The notes below the pieces were generated by a model, which was given only the letters and a program-made list of their open reading frames with translations, was not told the DNA's origin and made no database searches. From a virus (Duplodnaviria > Caudoviricetes): a DNA stretch of 64,000 nt. How positions within the stretch are numbered: the first letter of the stretch is position 1; every line of letters starts with the position of its first letter. The stretch covers positions 160,001 through 224,000 of IMG/VR virus record IMGVR_UViG_3300015606_001334; one strand, 5' to 3'. Below are positions 700 through 15,471 of this stretch, piece by piece. The position numbers were made by a program, and so were the translations under genes.

Positions 700-2190
700 T
701 TAGTCGTTGCGTTCACCATAAGCGCGAGCGCGAATGGTTTCAAGATCGGTGAATTCCTTGAACCAACCACAGTCGTAAATGACTTCCATGATGTCTTCCC
801 ATTCCGGATTGGTGGGTTCATCAGGGTTGGTCGGCAGGGTCATGATCTCGCCAGTCAGACGGCTACGGTAGGTGTTGAGGAAACCAGCCTTGGACTTCTT
901 ACCGGGATCGGTAATCGGGTCCTTGAAGATTTCTTGCCACTTACCATCGACCTTGATGGCGCAAACCTTCTGAGCGAACTTGTAGGTATCGCGGTTCAGC
1001 TTTTGCAGCAATGCACCACCAGAACCGAACACCAAGTTCTGCGCAGAGTAGCCAAGATCGGTCACCAGTTGCAGAATCTTGCGGATCATCTCGATGTCGA
1101 TGCCATCGCCTTGGATGACGCCAACAGTGTTGATGACCTTATAGCCCTTGCTGTTAACAGTGAAGCCGAAAGTTGCAGCTTGCATGTCAAGCAGACGAGG
1201 AATGACTTCCAGCGGATCACCACTGTCAGGACGGAAGACGATACGAGCGCCGGACTTTTCGATCTGTTCCTTGAATTCAGTGCAAAGCAGCATGGATTCG
1301 CGGTACACGTCGTAACCGTCGAGCACGATCGAAACAATCGCACCAGGTTTCGCGTAGGTATCGAGGATCTTCTTCAGATATTCGCGTTGACGTTTCGGAC
1401 CGAACGAACACTGGATGCTGTGCTCAGTTGCAGGAACCGAGAAAGCAGCCATCGTGCAGTTGTAGTAGAAATTCGCAGCACGGATACCAGAGATGGTGTC
1501 AGAGCCAGTGAAGTTGACCAAGTGGGCCATGCCGCCGATCTGGGCGGATTCTTCAGAACTTACCCCACGGCCGCCAAAGTCATGCAACATGAACGGCAGA
1601 CCAGGATACTTGCCACGAAGGGTCGTTGCACCAGGAACCGGATCAACAGAGAGTTCGAAGAACTGTTCGATCACCTTGCGGATTTCGTAGTCCATCGAAG
1701 CAATCGTGGTCGGATACCAAACGGCACGCTGCATGGAAGTTTCGAGGTAGGAGGCAATCCATGCGACTTTCTTGTCTTCGCAGGTCGCGACATACAAGGC
1801 GTTGGCAGAAGGAATGGGGATACCTTCCTTGACGGCCTTGATCTTGAGGGGAATGAAGCCGTTGTACTTTTCGACGATGTATTCCCAAGGTTCACGGTCA
1901 AACGGTTCACCGTGGGCCTTTGCGAAATCTTCAGCTTCGTCGATCATGTCGATCGTAATCGGAGTGGAGAGGCGTTTGCGAATCCACATTTGGAGACCGA
2001 TCGGAACGACGATCTTGCCCTTGATGCGCGGCTCACCGTACGAAACTTGACCTTCCATCTCGTCCGGATAGACGGGACCGTGGGACAGTTTGTAGGAATC
2101 GGCGTCGAGGATGAAGTTTACCCCAAGAACATTGGGATTTTCGCGTTGGATTTGGCGACGGATTGCACGAGGCAGATCATTAAAATTCAT
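700..2190 (-). CDS. nadV: nicotinamide phosphoribosyltransferase (NAMPT)
   Basis: DADSYKLSH, WYPTTIAS, LHDFGGRG, SVPATEHS, FRPDSGDP, IQGDG, FGSGGALLQ, KDPITDPGKKSK motifs of NAMPT. Confidence 0.96.
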   Translation of the reverse strand: MNFNDLPRAIRRQIQRENPNVLGVNFILDADSYKLSHGPVYPDEMEGQVSYGEPRIKGKIVVPIGLQMWIRKRLSTPITIDMIDEAEDFAKAHGEPFDREPWEYIVEKYNGFIPLKIKAVKEGIPIPSANALYVATCEDKKVAWIASYLETSMQRAVWYPTTIASMDYEIRKVIEQFFELSVDPVPGATTLRGKYPGLPFMLHDFGGRGVSSEESAQIGGMAHLVNFTGSDTISGIRAANFYYNCTMAAFSVPATEHSIQCSFGPKRQREYLKKILDTYAKPGAIVSIVLDGYDVYRESMLLCTEFKEQIEKSGARIVFRPDSGDPLEVIPRLLDMQAATFGFTVNSKGYKVINTVGVIQGDGIDIEMIRKILQLVTDLGYSAQNLVFGSGGALLQKLNRDTYKFAQKVCAIKVDGKWQEIFKDPITDPGKKSKAGFLNTYRSRLTGEIMTLPTNPDEPTNPEWEDIMEVIYDCGWFKEFTDLETIRARAYGERND

Positions 2191-2251
2191 TTGAAAGCTC
2201 CTTTCAAAGATTGAGAAATGTAACTGTCTATCAGCTACAGGAATATTTATT
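2191..2251 (-). promoter_or_regulatory. two-hairpin leader element, copy 1 (nadV)
   Basis: mRNA: AAUAAAUAUUCC-UGUAGCUG[AUAGA]CAGUUACA-linker-UUGAAAG[GAG]CUUUCAA-AUG; same architecture at 8036-8089 and 15386-15444. Confidence 0.8.
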
Positions 2252-2277
2252 CCATCACGAACTCAGAAAAAGTAAAC
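2249..2277 (-). promoter_or_regulatory. early-type promoter GTTTAC-N17-TGGAAT overlapping an ATAAATA late-type box
   Basis: Matches the recurrent GTTTAC...TAnAAT motif with one mismatch in -10. Confidence 0.55.
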
Positions 2278-2774: not shown

Positions 2775-2986
2775 TATCGTTCTCCGAGCGAGGCATTGTG
2801 GAGGTTCACAATATGCGAAGCCACCTCACGACCAAGATTGAAGGCGATGGCAATTTGCATGTTAACAAATTTGAACTCCAGCTTAACCTTGTACTCTTCT
2901 TCTGTAAAGATAGAGCTATCTTTTACGGTCCAGCGGACCTTACGAACATCAACACTCATCTTCTTCATCTCCATAGAATTCTTCAA
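2774..2986 (-). CDS. hypothetical protein
   Basis: 70-aa ORF overlapping purA-like 3' end; start uncertain. Confidence 0.5.
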   Translation of the reverse strand: MKNSMEMKKMSVDVRKVRWTVKDSSIFTEEEYKVKLEFKFVNMQIAIAFNLGREVASHIVNLHNASLGER

Positions 2987-4220
2987 TATGTTGCGGATTC
3001 ATCAACCTGCCTTCAGTGATGAGGTAGTCTTCTTCACCATGACACATAACCACATGAGAAGCATTGATGCGTGTACCAAATTCCGCAGCGAAAACCTTAG
3101 GTGAAAACATGTAAGGCCTACCATCAAGTACTGCGGGAAAACCATTTTCGCCAACAGCTTGATCTAGACAGGTAATAGCCAAAGAAATTCTACCAATCCT
3201 TTTTACAGGAACTTTGAACTGGTCCTTCAAGATCCGAGCGATCGCATCATCGATATCAAGAATGGCGAGTCGCAGAGAACCTTGGAATTCATGCGGCTTG
3301 TTGGTTTCATCGACCACATTGAATAGGCGACCAAAGCCATCCTCTCCGTCGGTGATTTCACGCTTCAACGGTCCTGCGCCATGGCGGGTGAGGTACGGTC
3401 GGGTCACATAAGCAAGGTTGATAGGATCATCAATCTTTGCGGTGTCAAGAACACGGAGGACATTGTCGATACCAGTGAAAGACCTCGTCACATGAGGAAA
3501 ATCCGCAGACTCCTGATCGAGTGCCAGTCCTTGAGCACCTTCAAAAACGAGGTTATCAAACTGATTCAATGCCTCAGCCTCATCCATGACGATTACCCGC
3601 TCAAGGAAAGCTCGACATTGTAGCTCATATTGATGGTAGACATGGCGCAGATTCCCCATCACGACGTTGTCGATGCCGAGTTCTGCCAATCTCATTGGTA
3701 TGTACTCACCAAGGATGGCATTGATCTTCATGCAAAGGGTAGGACGATGGATGATGTCCTCAACCGTCAGTTGAAAATCGCAATAGTCGTAACCATGGCG
3801 TTCGACAGTCTCACCGAAGCCAACACCAACTGAGCCATGTCGGCCATCGCCTCGTGCACGCTCAATCTCTTGATTGATAAACATATCCCATGGTGTAGTG
3901 ATGGGACATTTCGGATCCACGTAGATGTCAGGCCTGATGACTCCCTTTCGGATCAGCTCGTTGTTCTCCTTCATGAACAGGTACGGAGAGCAGACGAAAT
4001 CCTTCGTCAAGATGGTAGGGATGTAGTCAAAGCTTCCAGAGCCGAAGTGCGAGAACACATGGCGCTGACGACCACTGACGACCGTATGTCCTGCTTGGGC
4101 ACCACCATTAAATCGGACGACTGCGCACTTGTCGTAATTTTTAGCGGCGAAGTAGTTGGTCATACGACCTTTACCTTCGTCGCCGTAGTTGGCGCCAATG
4201 ACGACTTGAATATTTTTCAT
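2949..4220 (-). CDS. purA: adenylosuccinate synthetase-like protein (divergent PurA family)
   Basis: GANYGDEGKG P-loop with catalytic Asp, RFNGGAQAGHT, FEGAQG, FPHVTRS, LTRHGAGP. Confidence 0.85.
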   Translation of the reverse strand: MKNIQVVIGANYGDEGKGRMTNYFAAKNYDKCAVVRFNGGAQAGHTVVSGRQRHVFSHFGSGSFDYIPTILTKDFVCSPYLFMKENNELIRKGVIRPDIYVDPKCPITTPWDMFINQEIERARGDGRHGSVGVGFGETVERHGYDYCDFQLTVEDIIHRPTLCMKINAILGEYIPMRLAELGIDNVVMGNLRHVYHQYELQCRAFLERVIVMDEAEALNQFDNLVFEGAQGLALDQESADFPHVTRSFTGIDNVLRVLDTAKIDDPINLAYVTRPYLTRHGAGPLKREITDGEDGFGRLFNVVDETNKPHEFQGSLRLAILDIDDAIARILKDQFKVPVKRIGRISLAITCLDQAVGENGFPAVLDGRPYMFSPKVFAAEFGTRINASHVVMCHGEEDYLITEGRLMNPQHIEEFYGDEEDEC

Positions 4221-4222
4221 TA

Positions 4223-4426
4223 TTACGCCTTAAACGTCATGAGTTGAAGAAACACTTTATTTCTACGAACACCATCGTAATCCAGAGAAGTTGCGACCGC
4301 GCAAAGGGCAATTGGATCAACTTCTTCAGCATAATGCTTGCTGAAGTAGTCAATCGTTGTTAAAAAATCAGTACACCCATTTTCGCATTCTTCAGCGATA
4401 ATCTTTATGATCTTTTTGATGTCCAC
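4223..4426 (-). CDS. hypothetical protein
   Basis: 67-aa ORF with AAGGA RBS. Confidence 0.55.
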   Translation of the reverse strand: MDIKKIIKIIAEECENGCTDFLTTIDYFSKHYAEEVDPIALCAVATSLDYDGVRRNKVFLQLMTFKA

Positions 4427-4436
4427 GATTTATCCT

Positions 4437-4748
4437 TTAAAGGAAGAACCGAGTGTCATCAATCAGAACCATCGCCTCGTTCATGTCGAGGCTGATGTCG
4501 TGATCGTTCATTTCGTTGAAGTTGGCGGCAAACTTCCCATCGACGCCGATGATGGAATACGCATCATGCACCGGAGAAAGAATCAGATGGGGCTTGGAGT
4601 CAGACGTTCCAGAAGCAATGCCTCGAATGACGTAAATGCCGAGCTCGACGTTGAAGAACATGTCGCCGTGGAAGGTATCTTCACGGAGTTCGGGAACTTG
4701 GAACATCAGACCAGTTTTAACGCAACGCATGGATTTCTCCTTCATCAA
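4437..4748 (-). CDS. hypothetical protein
   Basis: 103-aa ORF in tightly packed array. Confidence 0.55.
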   Translation of the reverse strand: MMKEKSMRCVKTGLMFQVPELREDTFHGDMFFNVELGIYVIRGIASGTSDSKPHLILSPVHDAYSIIGVDGKFAANFNEMNDHDISLDMNEAMVLIDDTRFFL

Positions 4749-4763
4749 TATAGAGACATTATA

Positions 4764-5519
4764 TCATGTCGGGAAGAGTTTGGAAACGATTTTCTTCAAT
4801 GTCGACGGAGCATAGCACTCACGTTTGCCAGCAACAGTGACCATGATTGCTTTGTCAGGCTTTTCTGCAGCCTTCATAAGATCGATCGCTTCGTCTAGAG
4901 AGTCTTCATGATATTCTATCGAAGCATTGCGATCAGAAAAATTGACTCCTGAAATATTTCCAGTATGGGATCTAAAGTATTTCTCAAGATCTTCGCAAAG
5001 TTCCTCGGCGATTTTTTCAACGAGTTCAGGAGGAGAAATGAGGCTGAACTGGATTTCCATGACGCCTTCAGAGGTGTAGATGTCTCCATCCTTACTAGGA
5101 TTCAGCGTGACATCGTAGTAAAACTCGGTGAAGGTGAAACGGCGTGGGATCATCCGATTCTCAGAAAGATAGTACTTTCCAATAGGACAATATGAAAAGG
5201 CTTGGAGAGCTGTCAACGCATTGTCAAGACTACGTTGCACTGCCTGACGATCATCGTTATTACCGTAAGCTCGAAAATGGAAGGTGCAAGTGAGTGCACA
5301 AGACCAAGCCCGATTCGACGTGACACTGATTAGGTCTTGAAGAGACTCAAAATATTCCTTGTAGGTCTCACCATTTGACAGCGAGATAGTCACATTACTA
5401 TCGTCACCAGCCGCCATTTGACGAACCATCTGAACAGGATTCTTTGGGTCATTCGTTGCAAGAATGAACTTCTTGTTGATGAACTTGATTTCTGCCGGGT
5501 CTTCGTATTTCGGATTCAT
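4764..5519 (-). CDS. hypothetical protein
   Basis: 251-aa ORF; no motif recognised. Confidence 0.7.
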   Translation of the reverse strand: MNPKYEDPAEIKFINKKFILATNDPKNPVQMVRQMAAGDDSNVTISLSNGETYKEYFESLQDLISVTSNRAWSCALTCTFHFRAYGNNDDRQAVQRSLDNALTALQAFSYCPIGKYYLSENRMIPRRFTFTEFYYDVTLNPSKDGDIYTSEGVMEIQFSLISPPELVEKIAEELCEDLEKYFRSHTGNISGVNFSDRNASIEYHEDSLDEAIDLMKAAEKPDKAIMVTVAGKRECYAPSTLKKIVSKLFPT

Positions 5520-5554
5520 ATCACATCGTATTCAGAAAATTGCATTATAAACTA

Positions 5555-5580
5555 AAAAAGGGAACCTAGGTTCCCTTTTT
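5555..5580. terminator. intrinsic terminator (palindromic, potentially bidirectional)
   Basis: AAAAAGGGAACCTAGGTTCCCTTTTT perfect palindrome. Confidence 0.8.
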
Positions 5581-5596
5581 CTAACGAATGTTTTCG

Positions 5597-6520
5597 TTAC
5601 AGGCCGAGCGCGTGACGAACTACAGCTTGAGCCTTACTGTTTTCCCAGCTACCGATGACCTTTTCAGGATCAGCGCCTTCATTGACTTCCATGACGGAGA
5701 TGATGACTTCCGAAATGTAGTCGTAGTCGCTCAACAGAATTGCCTTCTTGCCGAGCAGGTTGCGCCATTTCGCAACAGTATCGTTGCGGCTTTGGCTGTA
5801 AGAACAGTGACTGCCTTGTTCACAGATGATGTGGAAGACGTTGTACTTTTCTTGGGCCAGTTCAAGCATTTCCTTGGAGGAATAGCTCTTTTCTTCGCCA
5901 CCGTTAAAGATGTTGTTGATCTGAGCAGAGGTGAGACCTTGAGGCGGTGGCGGCTCATCACCAATCGTGAACAGATAACCCTTTTGACCGCGCTTTTCGA
6001 AGCAGTCGATTGCGGTACGCTTACCAGCGAAGTACCACGGAATGTCGTACGACTCGAAAGCGTTACCACCACCGCCACCTTCCAGCCACAGTTCCTTCAG
6101 TTGTTCAGCGATACGAATATCGGCTTCGAACTGAGAAACTTGCAGAGGAGCACGATCGCAGAAGGCGTCGCCAATAGCCATGACCATCACGTGCGGATCA
6201 TCGACCGGCTTGCGGGTGAGGATACCATCAACCAGTTTGCCGAGACCTTCAGTTGCAATCTTTTCAGCAACGATGCCCATGGAACCAGTAACGTCCAGGC
6301 CGAGGATGATCGCGTTGGAATTCGGATTGGCTTCGGAATCGCGAGATTCGCGGAGCATCACGCCCTTCGGATCAAAGATCGACTTGATGGAAGTTTGCTT
6401 GAAAACTTGAGCACGAGCTGCGGTATCGGAAAAACCTTTTGCGCGAGCAGTACTCAAAGTTGCGGAAGTTGCGCTTGCATAAGCGCGATAATCATTGTTG
6501 TCCCAACGACTGTAACCCAT
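5597..6520 (-). CDS. von Willebrand factor A (vWA) domain protein
   Basis: IILGLDVTGSMG MIDAS motif, GGGGNAFESY, LFTIGDE; start set at MGYSRW behind AGGAG RBS. Confidence 0.85.
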   Translation of the reverse strand: MGYSRWDNNDYRAYASATSATLSTARAKGFSDTAARAQVFKQTSIKSIFDPKGVMLRESRDSEANPNSNAIILGLDVTGSMGIVAEKIATEGLGKLVDGILTRKPVDDPHVMVMAIGDAFCDRAPLQVSQFEADIRIAEQLKELWLEGGGGGNAFESYDIPWYFAGKRTAIDCFEKRGQKGYLFTIGDEPPPPQGLTSAQINNIFNGGEEKSYSSKEMLELAQEKYNVFHIICEQGSHCSYSQSRNDTVAKWRNLLGKKAILLSDYDYISEVIISVMEVNEGADPEKVIGSWENSKAQAVVRHALGL

Positions 6521-6531
6521 CTTGATTCTCC

Positions 6532-7179
6532 TTAAAAACAATCTGCTTCATCGATACCACCGAACATTTCTTGGTCAATGTCGTAATCAACATAACCATA
6601 TTGGTCTTTTACGTACTTCTTCGAAACCGTTTTAAATGTAAGTGGATCAACTACTTGCTTTTCGTAAACTTGCTGAACCGGCTTTTTCTTACCACCGAAA
6701 ATTCCAGTATCATTCTTGAGCTTTTCATCCCGAGCGATCAGAGATTTTGGGTCATAAATTGCACCGTTGATCTCGACCTCGTACATGTCAGGCTTTCCAG
6801 AAGCATTCTTCAATCTACCAATGACATAAATGTCTCTGTTGTTGTAGACTTCAGGATTACCAGGGCCTTGCATGACCGAAGCAATCTTTGCTGCTGAATG
6901 ACGTTGGACATATCCTACATGGTTGAACTTGTCGTACTTCCAAACAAGGACCTTGTAAGCATTTTTGTCGTATGCATTCGTCGGTTCGGCCTTCAAAAAG
7001 ATTCTAGCGCCAGGACCAACTTCTTCCAACATACGAGTTGCCCATGCGCCGCGATAATACTGACCGACGATAGGAACTACGAGTCCAGATAACGAAGGAA
7101 CCGGTTTGATTCCTTCATTAGCCGTCGCATTGGTGGAAGGAGAAACCTTCTCTCCTTCCTTACCTGAACCCGTTACTCG
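6532..7179 (-). CDS. HIRAN-domain region, probably expressed as the -1 frameshift extension of 7173..8036
   Basis: LKAEPTNAYDKNAYKV...HVGYV HIRAN motif; first HIRAN strand (VVPIVGQYYR) lies upstream of the first ATG (7032) in an open frame with no start codon. Confidence 0.7.
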   Translation of the reverse strand, partial: RVTGSGKEGEKVSPSTNATANEGIKPVPSLSGLVVPIVGQYYRGAWATRMLEEVGPGARIFLKAEPTNAYDKNAYKVLVWKYDKFNHVGYVQRHSAAKIASVMQGPGNPEVYNNRDIYVIGRLKNASGKPDMYEVEINGAIYDPKSLIARDEKLKNDTGIFGGKKKPVQQVYEKQVVDPLTFKTVSKKYVKDQYGYVDYDIDQEMFGGIDEADCF

Positions 7180-7185
7180 AAAAAA
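7080..7185 (-). promoter_or_regulatory. putative -1 programmed ribosomal frameshift signal
   Basis: U_UUU_UUC heptamer (7179-7185), 6-nt spacer, 13-bp stem (7160-7172 with 7080-7092) enclosing two further hairpins. Confidence 0.75.
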
Positions 7186-8036
7186 CTCTTGCCGCCCTTG
7201 TTACCACCCATGAGCTTCGACATGAGCATCATCTGCATCATGCCACCCATCGGGTTGGCAGCAGCCGGAGCTGCAGGAGCTGTAGCCTTTACGGTAGCCG
7301 CAGCTTCAACGATCTTGGCCCAAGCAGAAATTGCTTCCTGATAGGCAACCAATGCTTCGTTGTTGCGCTTGTTGATTTCGACGATTTCTGCCTTGGTAGC
7401 AGAAGCAGGAATGTCTTCCTGAACCAGCTTCGGTTGAGCAGGAATTTCGATGGCGACGCCACCAGCTGCTGCCGGAGCGGCCTGATCTTGACCCATCATG
7501 CTCATCATGAGCATCATTTGGACCATGTCACCAGCATCTTCATTGGTGGAGCCGGCCATCAGCATCGGCAGCATCATTTGGAAGTTTTGCTGGCCAGTAG
7601 CACCGGTCAGGGAGAAGAGGTTACGGAGAACCATGACGCCAGATTGATCCATGCCCATGGTAACGACCTTGTTGCGGCGCAGAGTGCCTTCGCTGGAGTC
7701 GGTGTTCAGAAGGATCAGAGAATTCGGGTTCTTTTCAACAACCCAGCCCGGACGACCACCAGGACGGAAGGCCAGATCACCGAGTTGGACGTCATCGAAC
7801 GGGACGCTTTGAGCGAAAGCCGGAACGGCCATGCCGAATTCAGAGAACATGTTTTCAACGACTTGGGCTGCTTCGCCTTCGCCGTTCAGAGAGAAGATGG
7901 AACCGTTCTTGCCGAGGATACCCATCTTACCGGTGGAAATATCCCAAACGACGTCCTTGACCGGCTGGAACATTCGAGCCAGCATCTTGTCGCCGATGGT
8001 TTGACCGAACTTGTTAAGTGCTTGATTTGCTTGCAT
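7173..8036 (-). CDS. hypothetical protein with Met/Ala-rich C-terminal half
   Basis: 287-aa ORF with repeated MMLPML/MMQMMLM segments; GGAG RBS inside hairpin. Confidence 0.85.
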   Translation of the reverse strand: MQANQALNKFGQTIGDKMLARMFQPVKDVVWDISTGKMGILGKNGSIFSLNGEGEAAQVVENMFSEFGMAVPAFAQSVPFDDVQLGDLAFRPGGRPGWVVEKNPNSLILLNTDSSEGTLRRNKVVTMGMDQSGVMVLRNLFSLTGATGQQNFQMMLPMLMAGSTNEDAGDMVQMMLMMSMMGQDQAAPAAAGGVAIEIPAQPKLVQEDIPASATKAEIVEINKRNNEALVAYQEAISAWAKIVEAAATVKATAPAAPAAANPMGGMMQMMLMSKLMGGNKGGKSFFE

Positions 8037-8089
8037 GTCTAAAACTCCTTTTTGACAGAAAAAACTACAGAAAGTCTATCTTCCTGTAG
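8036..8089 (-). promoter_or_regulatory. two-hairpin leader element, copy 2
   Basis: mRNA: CUACAGGAAG[AUAGA]CUUUCUGUAG-UUUUUUC-UGUCAAAAA[GGAG]UUUUAGACA-UG; an extra hairpin at 8091-8113. Confidence 0.75.
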
Positions 8090-8119
8090 GATCGATTGAG
8101 TTATTCAACCGATACATAA

Positions 8120-8148
8120 ATTATATACTAATTCCAGAAAGAGTAAAC
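8120..8148 (-). promoter_or_regulatory. early-type promoter GTTTAC-N17-TATAAT
   Basis: Recurrent motif; T4-early/sigma70-like. Confidence 0.8.
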
Positions 8149-14289: not shown

Positions 14290-15384
14290 TTAGAGATTAC
14301 CAACCAACTTTTGCACGATGAATGAGTGATCTTCGAACATCATGTTTTCCATTTGCTTGAACTCAGCAAGAGGGACCCATTTGACTCGAGTTACATCACA
14401 TTCAGGATCGGTGTTACCTTGCTGTGAACCCTTGACTTTCGGCAGACCTTCTGGAACGGCATCCAAAGCGAAGTAGAAACCGAAGGTAACGGTACGACCG
14501 CGAAGAGAACGCTCAGGATCGTCGAAGTAATCGCGATTCTTGACTGAACCACGAAGTTTGGCTTCAGGAACCTTGATCTTCGTTTCTTCTTGCAGCTCAC
14601 GGATGACGGCATCGAAGATACGTTCTTTCGGATTCACGAAGCCGCCAGGCAGAGCCCAAAGACCTTCACCAGGCATAGCACCACGACGGACAAGAAGAAT
14701 GTGACCGGCTTGGATTACCACTGCATCAACAGTGATAAAAGTCGGTTCATAAGGAGCGGCTTCCCAAGCGCCCTTATACTTCTTGACATGTTGGTATTCT
14801 GATCGGAAACGGTCAGCTTGATCGCGCTCAGTCGAGAAGAATTCTTCGATCCAGTGCATTGCTGCACGAGGGATGTCATTGCGAATCGATTCAGGAAGAG
14901 CGTGAACGTTCAGGTAACCAGTGGATTCAAACAGGAAGTTGCGAATTTCAGTTGCGTTGATCTTGCCGAATTCTTCGATTTCGACACGTTCCCACTGAGG
15001 GAAAAGGTCAAGGTAGAAGGAGGTGTGATCACGCTTGAAACCGATGATGCCGATCTTTGCATCATCTTTGTCGGTCTTGACGTTGACGACAGCTTGAACT
15101 TCAGACAGCCAAAGTTCATCGTTGTACGGATAGTCGTGGATCGGTACGACCTTGACGCGCTTTTGTGAAATGCCTTCATCCTTGAGAACGGCACGAATCA
15201 TGTTTTCACGTTGTTGTGCAGTCCACGGGTTACGGATGTTATTTGCGCGATTGCTACTGCCAAGAAGAATGAGAACTTCATCAGCTTGGTCGAGAGCGGC
15301 CTTCAGAGTTTGAAGGTGACCGTTGTGAAATGGTTGAAAACGGCCGATGTAGACGATGCTGTCGAACTTGCGAGTCTTAGACAT
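14290..15384 (-). CDS. nadM: bifunctional NMN adenylyltransferase / Nudix ADP-ribose pyrophosphatase (NadM-Nudix, NatV-like)
   Basis: YIGRFQPFHNGH, RNPW, INATEIR; Nudix box GGFVNPKERIFDAVIRELQEET; RSLRGRTVT, FEDH. Confidence 0.95.
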   Translation of the reverse strand: MSKTRKFDSIVYIGRFQPFHNGHLQTLKAALDQADEVLILLGSSNRANNIRNPWTAQQRENMIRAVLKDEGISQKRVKVVPIHDYPYNDELWLSEVQAVVNVKTDKDDAKIGIIGFKRDHTSFYLDLFPQWERVEIEEFGKINATEIRNFLFESTGYLNVHALPESIRNDIPRAAMHWIEEFFSTERDQADRFRSEYQHVKKYKGAWEAAPYEPTFITVDAVVIQAGHILLVRRGAMPGEGLWALPGGFVNPKERIFDAVIRELQEETKIKVPEAKLRGSVKNRDYFDDPERSLRGRTVTFGFYFALDAVPEGLPKVKGSQQGNTDPECDVTRVKWVPLAEFKQMENMMFEDHSFIVQKLVGNL

Positions 15385-15385
15385 A

Positions 15386-15444
15386 TATAGAGCTCCTCTA
15401 TAAATATTGATAAATTGTTGGTCTTTCCAACAGGAATATTTATT
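15386..15444 (-). promoter_or_regulatory. two-hairpin leader element, copy 3 (nadM-Nudix)
   Basis: mRNA: AAUAAAUAUUCC-UGUUGG[AAAGA]CCAACA-linker-UAUAGAG[GAG]CUCUAUA-U-AUG. Confidence 0.8.
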
Positions 15445-15471
15445 GTATCAAGACTTCAAGAGATTGTAAAC
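15442..15471 (-). promoter_or_regulatory. early-type promoter GTTTAC-N18-TACAAT
   Basis: Recurrent motif directly upstream of the leader element. Confidence 0.65.

What the first reader, a model, noticed from the sequence alone, without database searches (positions are those of the whole stretch)
2191..2251. Recurrent two-hairpin leader RNA on both NAD-salvage genes: candidate undescribed riboswitch or translational operator
Seen: nadV (2191-2251), nadM-Nudix (15386-15444) and the 287-aa gene (8036-8089) are 6-13 kb apart, yet each start codon is preceded by the same architecture. Hairpin 1 has loop G[A(U/A)AGA]C. A 7-13-nt U-rich linker follows. Hairpin 2 holds the GGAG Shine-Dalgarno at its apex and ends at the AUG. 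Loops are conserved while stems differ yet keep pairing (UGUAGCUG/CAGUUACA, UGUUGG/CCAACA, CUACAGGAAG/CUUUCUGUAG; UUGAAAG/CUUUCAA, UAUAGAG/CUCUAUA). The hairpin-1 mismatches are G-U only on the mRNA strand. The two nad copies also share AAUAAAUAUUCC and begin a few nt after a GTTTAC promoter. Inference: an RNA-level regulon coupling translation of the NAD pathway to a ligand (NAD+, NMN, ADP-ribose) or to an RNA-binding protein. I do not recognise it as an NAD+-I/II riboswitch or an NrtR DNA box.
Basis: partly seen in the sequence, partly recalled or inferred. Interest (0 to 1): 0.9.

Follow-up and report, generated by a model that had tools for sequence, protein, structure and literature searches.

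The report
RNA leader controlling NAD-salvage genes
Three genes of this jumbo phage start with the same small two-hairpin RNA, an uncatalogued control element found almost only before NAD-making genes in many phages and bacteria, and comparative evidence points to one of those enzymes, NadM-Nudix, as the protein that reads it.

Summary
Observation confirmed. A model built only from other genomes finds exactly three copies in the 359.6-kb phage genome: before nadV, nadM-Nudix and the 287-aa gene. The motif is widespread: about 150 phage and bacterial copies with strongly covarying stems and a mRNA-strand G-U bias. It precedes nadM, nadV, nadA, pnuC and a few small neighbouring ORFs. No Rfam match; no paper found. 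One correction: the shared AAUAAAUAUUCC is promoter DNA (sigma70 -10 end plus T4-type late promoter), not part of the RNA motif. A riboswitch is unlikely: conservation is confined to a pentaloop and the SD apex, and loop variants switch together at both genes of a genome (78/87). The motif occurs in 21/24 bacterial nadV genomes that have NadM-Nudix and 0/26 that lack it (5/5 independent pairs, p=0.06). The nadV-leader loop type fits the NadM tree better than the NadV tree (13 vs 18 changes). CsrA, NrtR and PyrR fail as general readers. Best reading (about 0.5): a translational operator bound by NadM-Nudix itself, giving feedback repression. Binding, ligand and direction of control are not shown. 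The scan found this motif before on other DNA (11 notes, at least 10 genomes).

The parts
700..2190 (-). nadV, nicotinamide phosphoribosyltransferase (496 aa); regulated gene
   Evidence: Pfam NAMPT_N + NAPRTase, phrog_448
2191..2207 (-). nadV leader hairpin 2; SD GGAG at the apex, stem ends at the AUG
2219..2239 (-). nadV leader hairpin 1, pentaloop AUAGA closed by G-C; candidate recognition site, predicted at the 5' end of the mRNA
2244..2277 (-). nadV promoter region: GTTTAC -35 (2277-2272), -10 at 2254-2249 (TGGAAT here, TAGAAT in sister strains), overlapping ATAAATA late-promoter motif (2250-2244)
   Evidence: consensus matches only
7173..8036 (-). 287-aa phage gene of unknown function; small SH3/KOW-like barrel at about residues 74-140 (low confidence); clade-specific target of the motif
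8036..8057 (-). 287-aa gene leader hairpin 2 (bulged), SD at the apex
8065..8089 (-). 287-aa gene leader hairpin 1, loop AUAGA closed by G-C, 10 pairs
8120..8148 (-). GTTTAC / TATAAT promoter-like site of the 287-aa gene
14290..15384 (-). nadM-Nudix, bifunctional NMN adenylyltransferase / Nudix hydrolase (364 aa); regulated gene and proposed reader
   Evidence: Pfam CTP_transf_like + NUDIX; PDB 2qjo E 1.7e-80
15386..15402 (-). nadM leader hairpin 2, SD GGAG at the apex
15416..15432 (-). nadM leader hairpin 1, loop AAAGA closed by G-C
15437..15471 (-). nadM promoter region: -35 (15470-15465), extended -10 TACAAT (15447-15442), overlapping ATAAATA late-promoter motif (15443-15437)
   Evidence: consensus matches only

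Best explanation
The element is a cis-acting translational operator of an NAD-synthesis regulon. Shown by comparison: two covarying hairpins on the mRNA, the second occluding the Shine-Dalgarno, placed before nadM, nadV, nadA and pnuC. It recognises the hairpin-1 pentaloop, probably also the SD loop about 23 nt away, and stabilises the closed SD hairpin, so its own accumulation turns down translation of the pathway. Most speculative: an active-site ligand (ADP-ribose or NMN releasing, or NAD+/ATP tightening) gates binding, so the pathway opens when host defences cleave NAD+.
For: Structure: 221 leaders chosen on loop sequence alone are 84.5% paired against 29-43% for slid controls; G-U 79 vs A-C 44 (p=0.002), 38 vs 7 in the first two pairs; SD window -5.0 vs -2.6 kcal/mol for 590 other SD-led genes. 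Model-fitted alignment: 93% paired, 693 two-sided changes vs 204 shuffled. Specificity: 146 of 165 ORF-linked hits precede nadM or nadV; nadA in three phages, once about 300 kb from nadM-nadV; pnuC in four; nadV leaders about 40 kb from nadM. Gene-blind metagenome pattern: 11 of 81 matches precede nadM/nadV. Protein reader: information lies only in the loop and SD apex, spacing varies 18-31 nt, no loop-loop pairing signal; loop class agrees between nadM and nadV leaders in 78 of 87 loci, shuffle mean 41, maximum 57. NadM specifically: 21/24 vs 0/26 bacterial nadV loci with and without NadM-Nudix; a model-free test gives 22/24 vs 1/26 and 5 of 5 independent pairs; nadV-leader class needs 13 changes on the NadM tree and 18 on the NadV tree, with clear swaps in L001, L031, L105 and the L067 clade. 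Rationale: NARP2 overproduces NAD+, consumes PRPP and its operon was toxic in E. coli (bioRxiv 10.1101/2024.02.11.579819).
Against: No binding, reporter or RNA data. Five independent pairs give only p=0.0625. Deleting or swapping nadM can carry the adjacent nadV leader with it, which would mimic dependence; decayed leaders in L231 and L235 argue only partly against this. Trees are FastTree, loop classes were defined after looking, 9 of 87 pairs are discordant, and 13 vs 18 has no formal test. NadM-Nudix is not sufficient: L398-L401 and phages CcrRogue, Astolliot, XacN1 and Mx1 have full or partial homologues and no recognisable motif. A candidate binding patch (positions 265-273) is not significant after phylogenetic correction and the window protein is itself an exception at 265. 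No nadM-plus, nadV-minus genome with the motif was found, so a NadM-NadV complex or NadV as co-reader is not excluded. I know of no report of RNA binding by NadM-Nudix and found none.
Confidence: 0.5

Rival explanations
1. Protein-bound translational operator, but the reader is something else: NadV, a NadM-NadV complex, or an unidentified host RNA-binding protein.
For: Everything that favours a protein reader. nadM and nadV nearly always travel together, and loop class also maps well on the NadV tree (18-19 changes vs 36-41 for shuffles on the NadM tree). The C-G closed variant resembles the PyrR site, which a phosphoribosyltransferase binds (PMC7430163).
Against: NadV alone does not keep the motif (0/26). 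CsrA is missing from motif-bearing Burkholderia, Caulobacter and Aestuariispira and present in motif-less Luteibacter. The standard loop spans beta-, gamma- and alphaproteobacteria and a cyanophage, while chromosomal cyanobacteria use another class. The 287-aa protein is absent from motif-bearing LucasX and B23 and present in phages without the motif.
Confidence: 0.2
2. No regulator: hairpin 1 is a 5'-terminal stabiliser or nuclease/processing signal and hairpin 2 a fixed damper of initiation that limits a costly pathway.
For: At nadM and nadV hairpin 1 begins within a few bases of the predicted start sites. SD occlusion is strong.
Against: Does not explain a loop sequence confined to NAD genes, its presence between nadM and nadV inside bacterial cassettes without promoter motifs, co-switching of loops or loss with nadM.
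Confidence: 0.15
3. A small riboswitch: the two hairpins bind NAD+, NMN, ADP-ribose or PRPP directly and control SD access.
For: Exclusive association with one cofactor pathway, including de novo (nadA) and transport (pnuC) genes; SD sequestration as in the NAD+-I riboswitch (PMC6859854).
Against: About six conserved bases outside the SD, all in a terminal loop; no conserved bulge or junction; variable linker; no loop-loop covariation. A small molecule would not change its preferred loop lineage by lineage, and a sensor should stay useful before nadV after nadM loss.
Confidence: 0.1
4. A DNA-level element (transcription-factor palindrome such as an NrtR box, or a terminator/attenuator).
For: Inverted repeats just after promoters; the 287-aa copy is followed by six U and scores as terminator-like.
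Against: Stem sequences are free while pairing is kept; G-U bias on the mRNA strand; NrtR wHTH in only 7 of 51 genomes and not in this phage; NrtR boxes are 21-bp GT-N7-AC palindromes (PMC2330246); the U-run is not kept in relatives.
Confidence: 0.05

Closest known systems
Autogenous translational operators read by enzymes: E. coli thrS operator (ThrRS), phage T4/RB69 gene 43 operator (from own knowledge)
   Same: Leader hairpin(s) next to the SD, proposed to be bound by the encoded enzyme to block initiation; thrS uses two loops for a dimeric enzyme.
   Different: Different sequence and fold, no tRNA mimicry; here a multi-gene regulon across phages and bacteria; binding not shown.
PyrR binding loop of the Bacillus pyr operon (consensus ARUCCAGAGAGGYU; PMC7430163)
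   Same: A nucleotide-metabolism enzyme moonlighting on RNA hairpins; the C-G closed variant in one phage clade has the same CCAGAGAGG apex.
   Different: No purine-rich internal bulge, no antiterminator/terminator, NAD rather than pyrimidine genes, no type I phosphoribosyltransferase in this phage, LucasX, B23 or L142's record; no Rfam match.
NAD+-I (nadA motif) and NAD+-II (pnuC motif) riboswitches
   Same: NAD-pathway genes including nadA and pnuC; SD sequestered in the second hairpin domain.
   Different: NAD+-I has tandem stem-bulge aptamers with conserved internal bulges (PMC6859854); this motif has plain hairpins with a conserved terminal pentaloop; no Rfam hit even at E 5-10.
CsrA/RsmA operators
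   Same: GGA presented in a hairpin loop at the SD, two loops about 25 nt apart.
   Different: Hairpin 1 has no GGA in its loop, and the motif's distribution does not follow csrA.
NrtR regulon (Nudix-wHTH repressor, ADP-ribose effector; PMC2330246)
   Same: Controls the same genes (nadM-nadV, nadA); its Nudix domain is very similar to that of NadM-Nudix; suggests ADP-ribose as effector.
   Different: NrtR acts on DNA palindromes through a wHTH domain; absent from this phage and most motif-bearing genomes.
NARP2 (phage Nampt + Nmnat; bioRxiv 10.1101/2024.02.11.579819)
   Same: The regulated nadV and nadM-Nudix are this pathway's enzyme types.
   Different: The passages read describe no RNA-level control.

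Membership tests
Any Rfam 15 family | Match at or near a family's gathering score | tested here: not met
   0 hits in the window; none on the leaders at E up to 10 or on five related loci at E up to 5
NAD+-I riboswitch (nadA motif) | Tandem P1/P1a domains with conserved internal bulge | tested here: not met
   Plain hairpins; information only in the terminal loop and SD apex
NAD+-I / NAD+-II riboswitches | Direct ligand binding by the RNA | not testable with these tools
   Needs in-line probing
NAD+-II riboswitch (pnuC motif) | Rfam model match / pseudoknot with the SD | tested here: not met
   No Rfam hit; no loop-to-hairpin-2 pairing signal above shuffles
CsrA/RsmA operator | GGA in a loop at the SD | tested here: met
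   Hairpin 2 apex; also expected from the SD alone
CsrA/RsmA operator | Second GGA loop upstream and csrA in the genome | tested here: not met
   Hairpin-1 loop is mostly A-N-A-G-A; 10 motif-bearing genomes lack csrA, csrA-positive Luteibacter lack the motif
PyrR binding loop | CCAGAGAGG-type terminal loop | tested here: inconclusive
   Present in the C-G variant clade, not in the window copies
PyrR binding loop | Purine-rich bulge, attenuator and pyr genes, PyrR protein | tested here: not met
   None seen; PF00156 absent from G000, LucasX, B23; host PyrR not tested
NrtR operator | Sequence-conserved 21-bp GT-N7-AC DNA palindrome with an nrtR gene | tested here: not met
   Stems vary freely; NrtR wHTH in 7 of 51 genomes, not in G000
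   Hairpin 2 before nadM in the window and in about 65 other loci
Autogenous translational operator | Element depends on, and co-varies with, the encoded protein | tested here: inconclusive
   Direction supports it: 21/24 vs 0/26, 5/5 pairs p=0.0625, 13 vs 18 changes; residue-level link not significant
Autogenous translational operator | Direct binding and repression by the protein | not testable with these tools
   Needs EMSA, toeprint, reporter

The most novel reading that the evidence does not exclude
NadM-Nudix is a ligand-gated RNA-binding repressor of an NAD regulon in phages and bacteria: ADP-ribose or NMN, the products of NAD-cleaving defences, release it from these leaders, so the phage senses NAD-depleting immunity and switches on NARP2 only when needed, with reader and loop co-evolving into orthogonal pairs.
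Probability: 0.25. Interest if true: 0.9.

Novelty: new variant of a known kind. Interest (0 to 1): 0.72.

Why it matters
How phages regulate NAD-rebuilding counter-defence genes is not described in what I could search, and NARP2 is known to be costly when uncontrolled. This motif gives a 50-nt handle, present in cultured phages (Xanthomonas phage LucasX, Synechococcus phage B23) and in Burkholderia, Lysobacter and Caulobacter, with a named candidate reader and natural loop variants for specificity swaps. The motif also flags unknown genes (the 287-aa gene, several small ORFs) as candidates for NAD-related function.

Tried and rejected
Rfam at gathering and E-value thresholds: nothing. Literature searches for the motif: nothing; main texts of Weinberg 2017 and Narunsky 2024 show no nadM/nadV motif, but the supplements of Weinberg 2017 and of the 10,000 viral RNA candidates (PMC10690425) are not held, so prior listing there is not excluded. 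One DOI recalled from memory was the wrong paper. CsrA, NrtR and PyrR as general readers: rejected on distribution. The 287-aa protein as reader: rejected; Pfam, PHROG and Atlas gave no function, the model is low-confidence (pLDDT 60) and fold matches are generic SH3/KOW barrels at Z about 6. Loop-loop or pseudoknot switch: no signal. Terminator reading of the 287-aa copy: U-run not conserved. Residue signature after the Nudix box: Fisher p=0.011 but only four independent pairs, not significant. The NadM-Nudix model was not used further. Expression: no RNA holder listed. Pair counts on alignment A3 are circular because rows were chosen for pairing; one search is the unbiased test. Model R1 was trained partly on NadM-positive bacteria, so repeats that test without it.

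Full report
Setting. The window is positions 160,001-224,000 of a 359,550-bp virus record rated complete, held by wastewater metagenomes. No close cultured relative: the best NadV matches in cultured phages are about 45% identical. The genes at 700-2190 and 14290-15384 are NadV/NAMPT and NadM-Nudix, the enzyme pair of the NARP2 pathway. The 287-aa gene (7173-8036) has no Pfam or PHROG match.

The observation. All three leaders are present as described. Across the whole genome, hairpins with the G[ANAGA]C loop and at least six pairs lie on the coding strand only at these leaders. A covariance model built from 20 leaders of other genomes (R1) returns exactly three matches in the genome, the same three. 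One detail is wrong. The shared 12-mer upstream of the two nad copies is the end of a sigma70 -10 hexamer overlapped by ATAAATA, a T4-type late-promoter motif that precedes 41 of 208 genes on the sense strand against 12 antisense. Sister strains read TAGAAT at the nadV -10, where this strain has one change at 2253. Hairpin 1 is therefore predicted at the very 5' end of the nadM and nadV transcripts; this is inferred from consensus matches.

Conservation. Five clades of relatives keep both hairpins at all three genes with changed but paired stems. Beyond them I collected 160 phage loci and 80 bacterial loci by NadV or NadM homology. Of 165 hairpin-1 hits followed by an SD and ORF, 81 precede nadV, 65 nadM and 6 the 287-aa family. 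Others precede nadA (three phages, one copy about 300 kb from nadM-nadV) and pnuC (four phages); several small unknown ORFs near nad genes also carry it. Choosing 221 leaders on loop sequence only, 84.5% of flanking positions pair against 29-43% when slid, G-U outnumbers A-C 79 to 44, and the SD region folds at -5.0 against -2.6 kcal/mol for 590 other SD-led genes. A gene-blind pattern scan of metagenomes, with no pairing demand, gave 11 of 81 matches before nadM or nadV; all ten matches with good pairing in both hairpins were among them (threshold set afterwards). An independent draw of 260 genomes gave two more nadM-nadV cassettes, both with both leaders. Cultured LucasX and Synechococcus B23 carry it; Serratia phage BF has a variant loop; CcrRogue, Astolliot, XacN1 and Mx1 show none. 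It is a real mRNA-strand structure marking an NAD-synthesis regulon.

What reads it. Sequence information is confined to the pentaloop with its closing pair and to the SD apex; the linker is free, loop-to-SD spacing runs 18-31 nt with a mode of 23-24, and the loops do not pair with each other. That is little for an aptamer and typical of a protein site (inference). Loop variants switch together: the class at nadM equals the class at nadV in 78 of 87 loci, against 41 on shuffling, though the stems differ, which points to a reader that differs between genomes. Among 50 bacterial genomes with nadV, 24 have NadM-Nudix. The motif is at 21 of those loci and at none of the other 26, and all whole-genome hits lie at nadM or nadV. 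A model-free test gives 22/24 against 1/26, with five of five phylogenetically independent pairs in the same direction, p=0.0625; Caulobacter L252 and L257 have nearly the same NadV but differ in both nadM and motif. The class of the nadV leader needs 13 changes on the NadM tree and 18 on its own NadV tree. In L001, L031 and L105 it follows the NadM clade against the NadV clade, and in the L067 group a replaced, divergent NadM goes with a new loop before nadM and loss of the standard loop before nadV. CsrA, NrtR, PyrR and the 287-aa protein do not follow the motif.

Limits of that argument. Leaders can move with an adjacent nadM; the independent events are few; classes were drawn after inspection; trees are fast trees. 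NadM-Nudix homologues outside nadM-nadV cassettes lack the motif, so the protein is at most necessary. Positions 265-273, on and after the Nudix-box helix, vary with loop class, but the link fails phylogenetic correction and the window protein is an exception: a lead only. I found no genome with the motif, nadM and no nadV, so NadV as partner stays open.

Mechanism. Most likely (about 0.5) NadM-Nudix binds hairpin 1, and perhaps the SD loop, and holds the SD hairpin shut, giving negative feedback on the pathway. Shown: structure, position over the SD, gene set, co-distribution. Inferred: binding, repression rather than activation. Speculative: gating by ADP-ribose, NMN or NAD+, by analogy with NrtR, whose Nudix domain closely resembles NadM's and releases DNA on binding ADP-ribose (PMC2330246). 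A need for feedback is documented: NARP2 overproduces NAD+ without any defence, uses PRPP, and its operon could not be cloned in E. coli. Rivals: another protein reader 0.2, regulator-free stabiliser and damper 0.15, riboswitch 0.1, DNA element 0.05.

Known systems and novelty. No Rfam family matches and no paper was found, though two candidate lists could not be read. It is not an NAD+-I or -II riboswitch, CsrA site, PyrR loop or NrtR box by the features tested. It would work like the thrS or T4 gene 43 operators and like PyrR as a moonlighting enzyme. I class it as a new variant of a known kind.

Noticed in passing
window 2253: This strain's nadV -10 reads TGGAAT; sister strains in other samples and relatives read TAGAAT, so the early promoter may be weakened here.
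   Followed up: partly
window 8094-8110 (-): An extra hairpin just upstream of the 287-aa gene's hairpin 1, kept with changed stems in relatives L007-L017; in L013/L015 it holds an ATAAATA motif.
   Followed up: no
window 2949-8036; L018, L019, L002, L017: The 287-aa gene, the phrog_2971-like gene and a divergent adenylosuccinate synthetase stay near each other in relatives; homologues of the 287-aa gene lie near purA-like genes in Vibrio phage phiKT1024 and Rhizobium phage TM30, which lack NadM-Nudix.
   Followed up: partly
L152:7011-7731: nadV is split into two ORFs about 1.2 kb apart and the second half has its own strong copy of the leader (43 bits). nadV is also split in L170 and L179.
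   Followed up: no
L231, L235, L247 upstream of nadV: Genomes without nadM keep decayed relics of the leader (broken hairpin 2, altered or orphan hairpin 1).
   Followed up: partly
L269:755-806 and 2446-2494 (Serratia phage BF): Same two-hairpin layout before both genes but with a different hairpin-1 loop; a natural specificity variant in a cultured phage.
   Followed up: partly
L272:714-768: A 29-bit copy of the motif 100 kb from the nad genes of a jumbo phage with no start codon after it: possible decoy or relic.
   Followed up: no
L045, L114, L132, L146, L182, L027, L072, L144, L117: Small or unannotated ORFs beside nad genes that carry the leader and have no informative Pfam match; candidate NAD-related genes.
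   Followed up: partly
whole genome G000: ATAAATA precedes 41 of 208 called genes and GTTTAC-type early promoters 24-30, a T4-like two-tier promoter system.
   Followed up: partly
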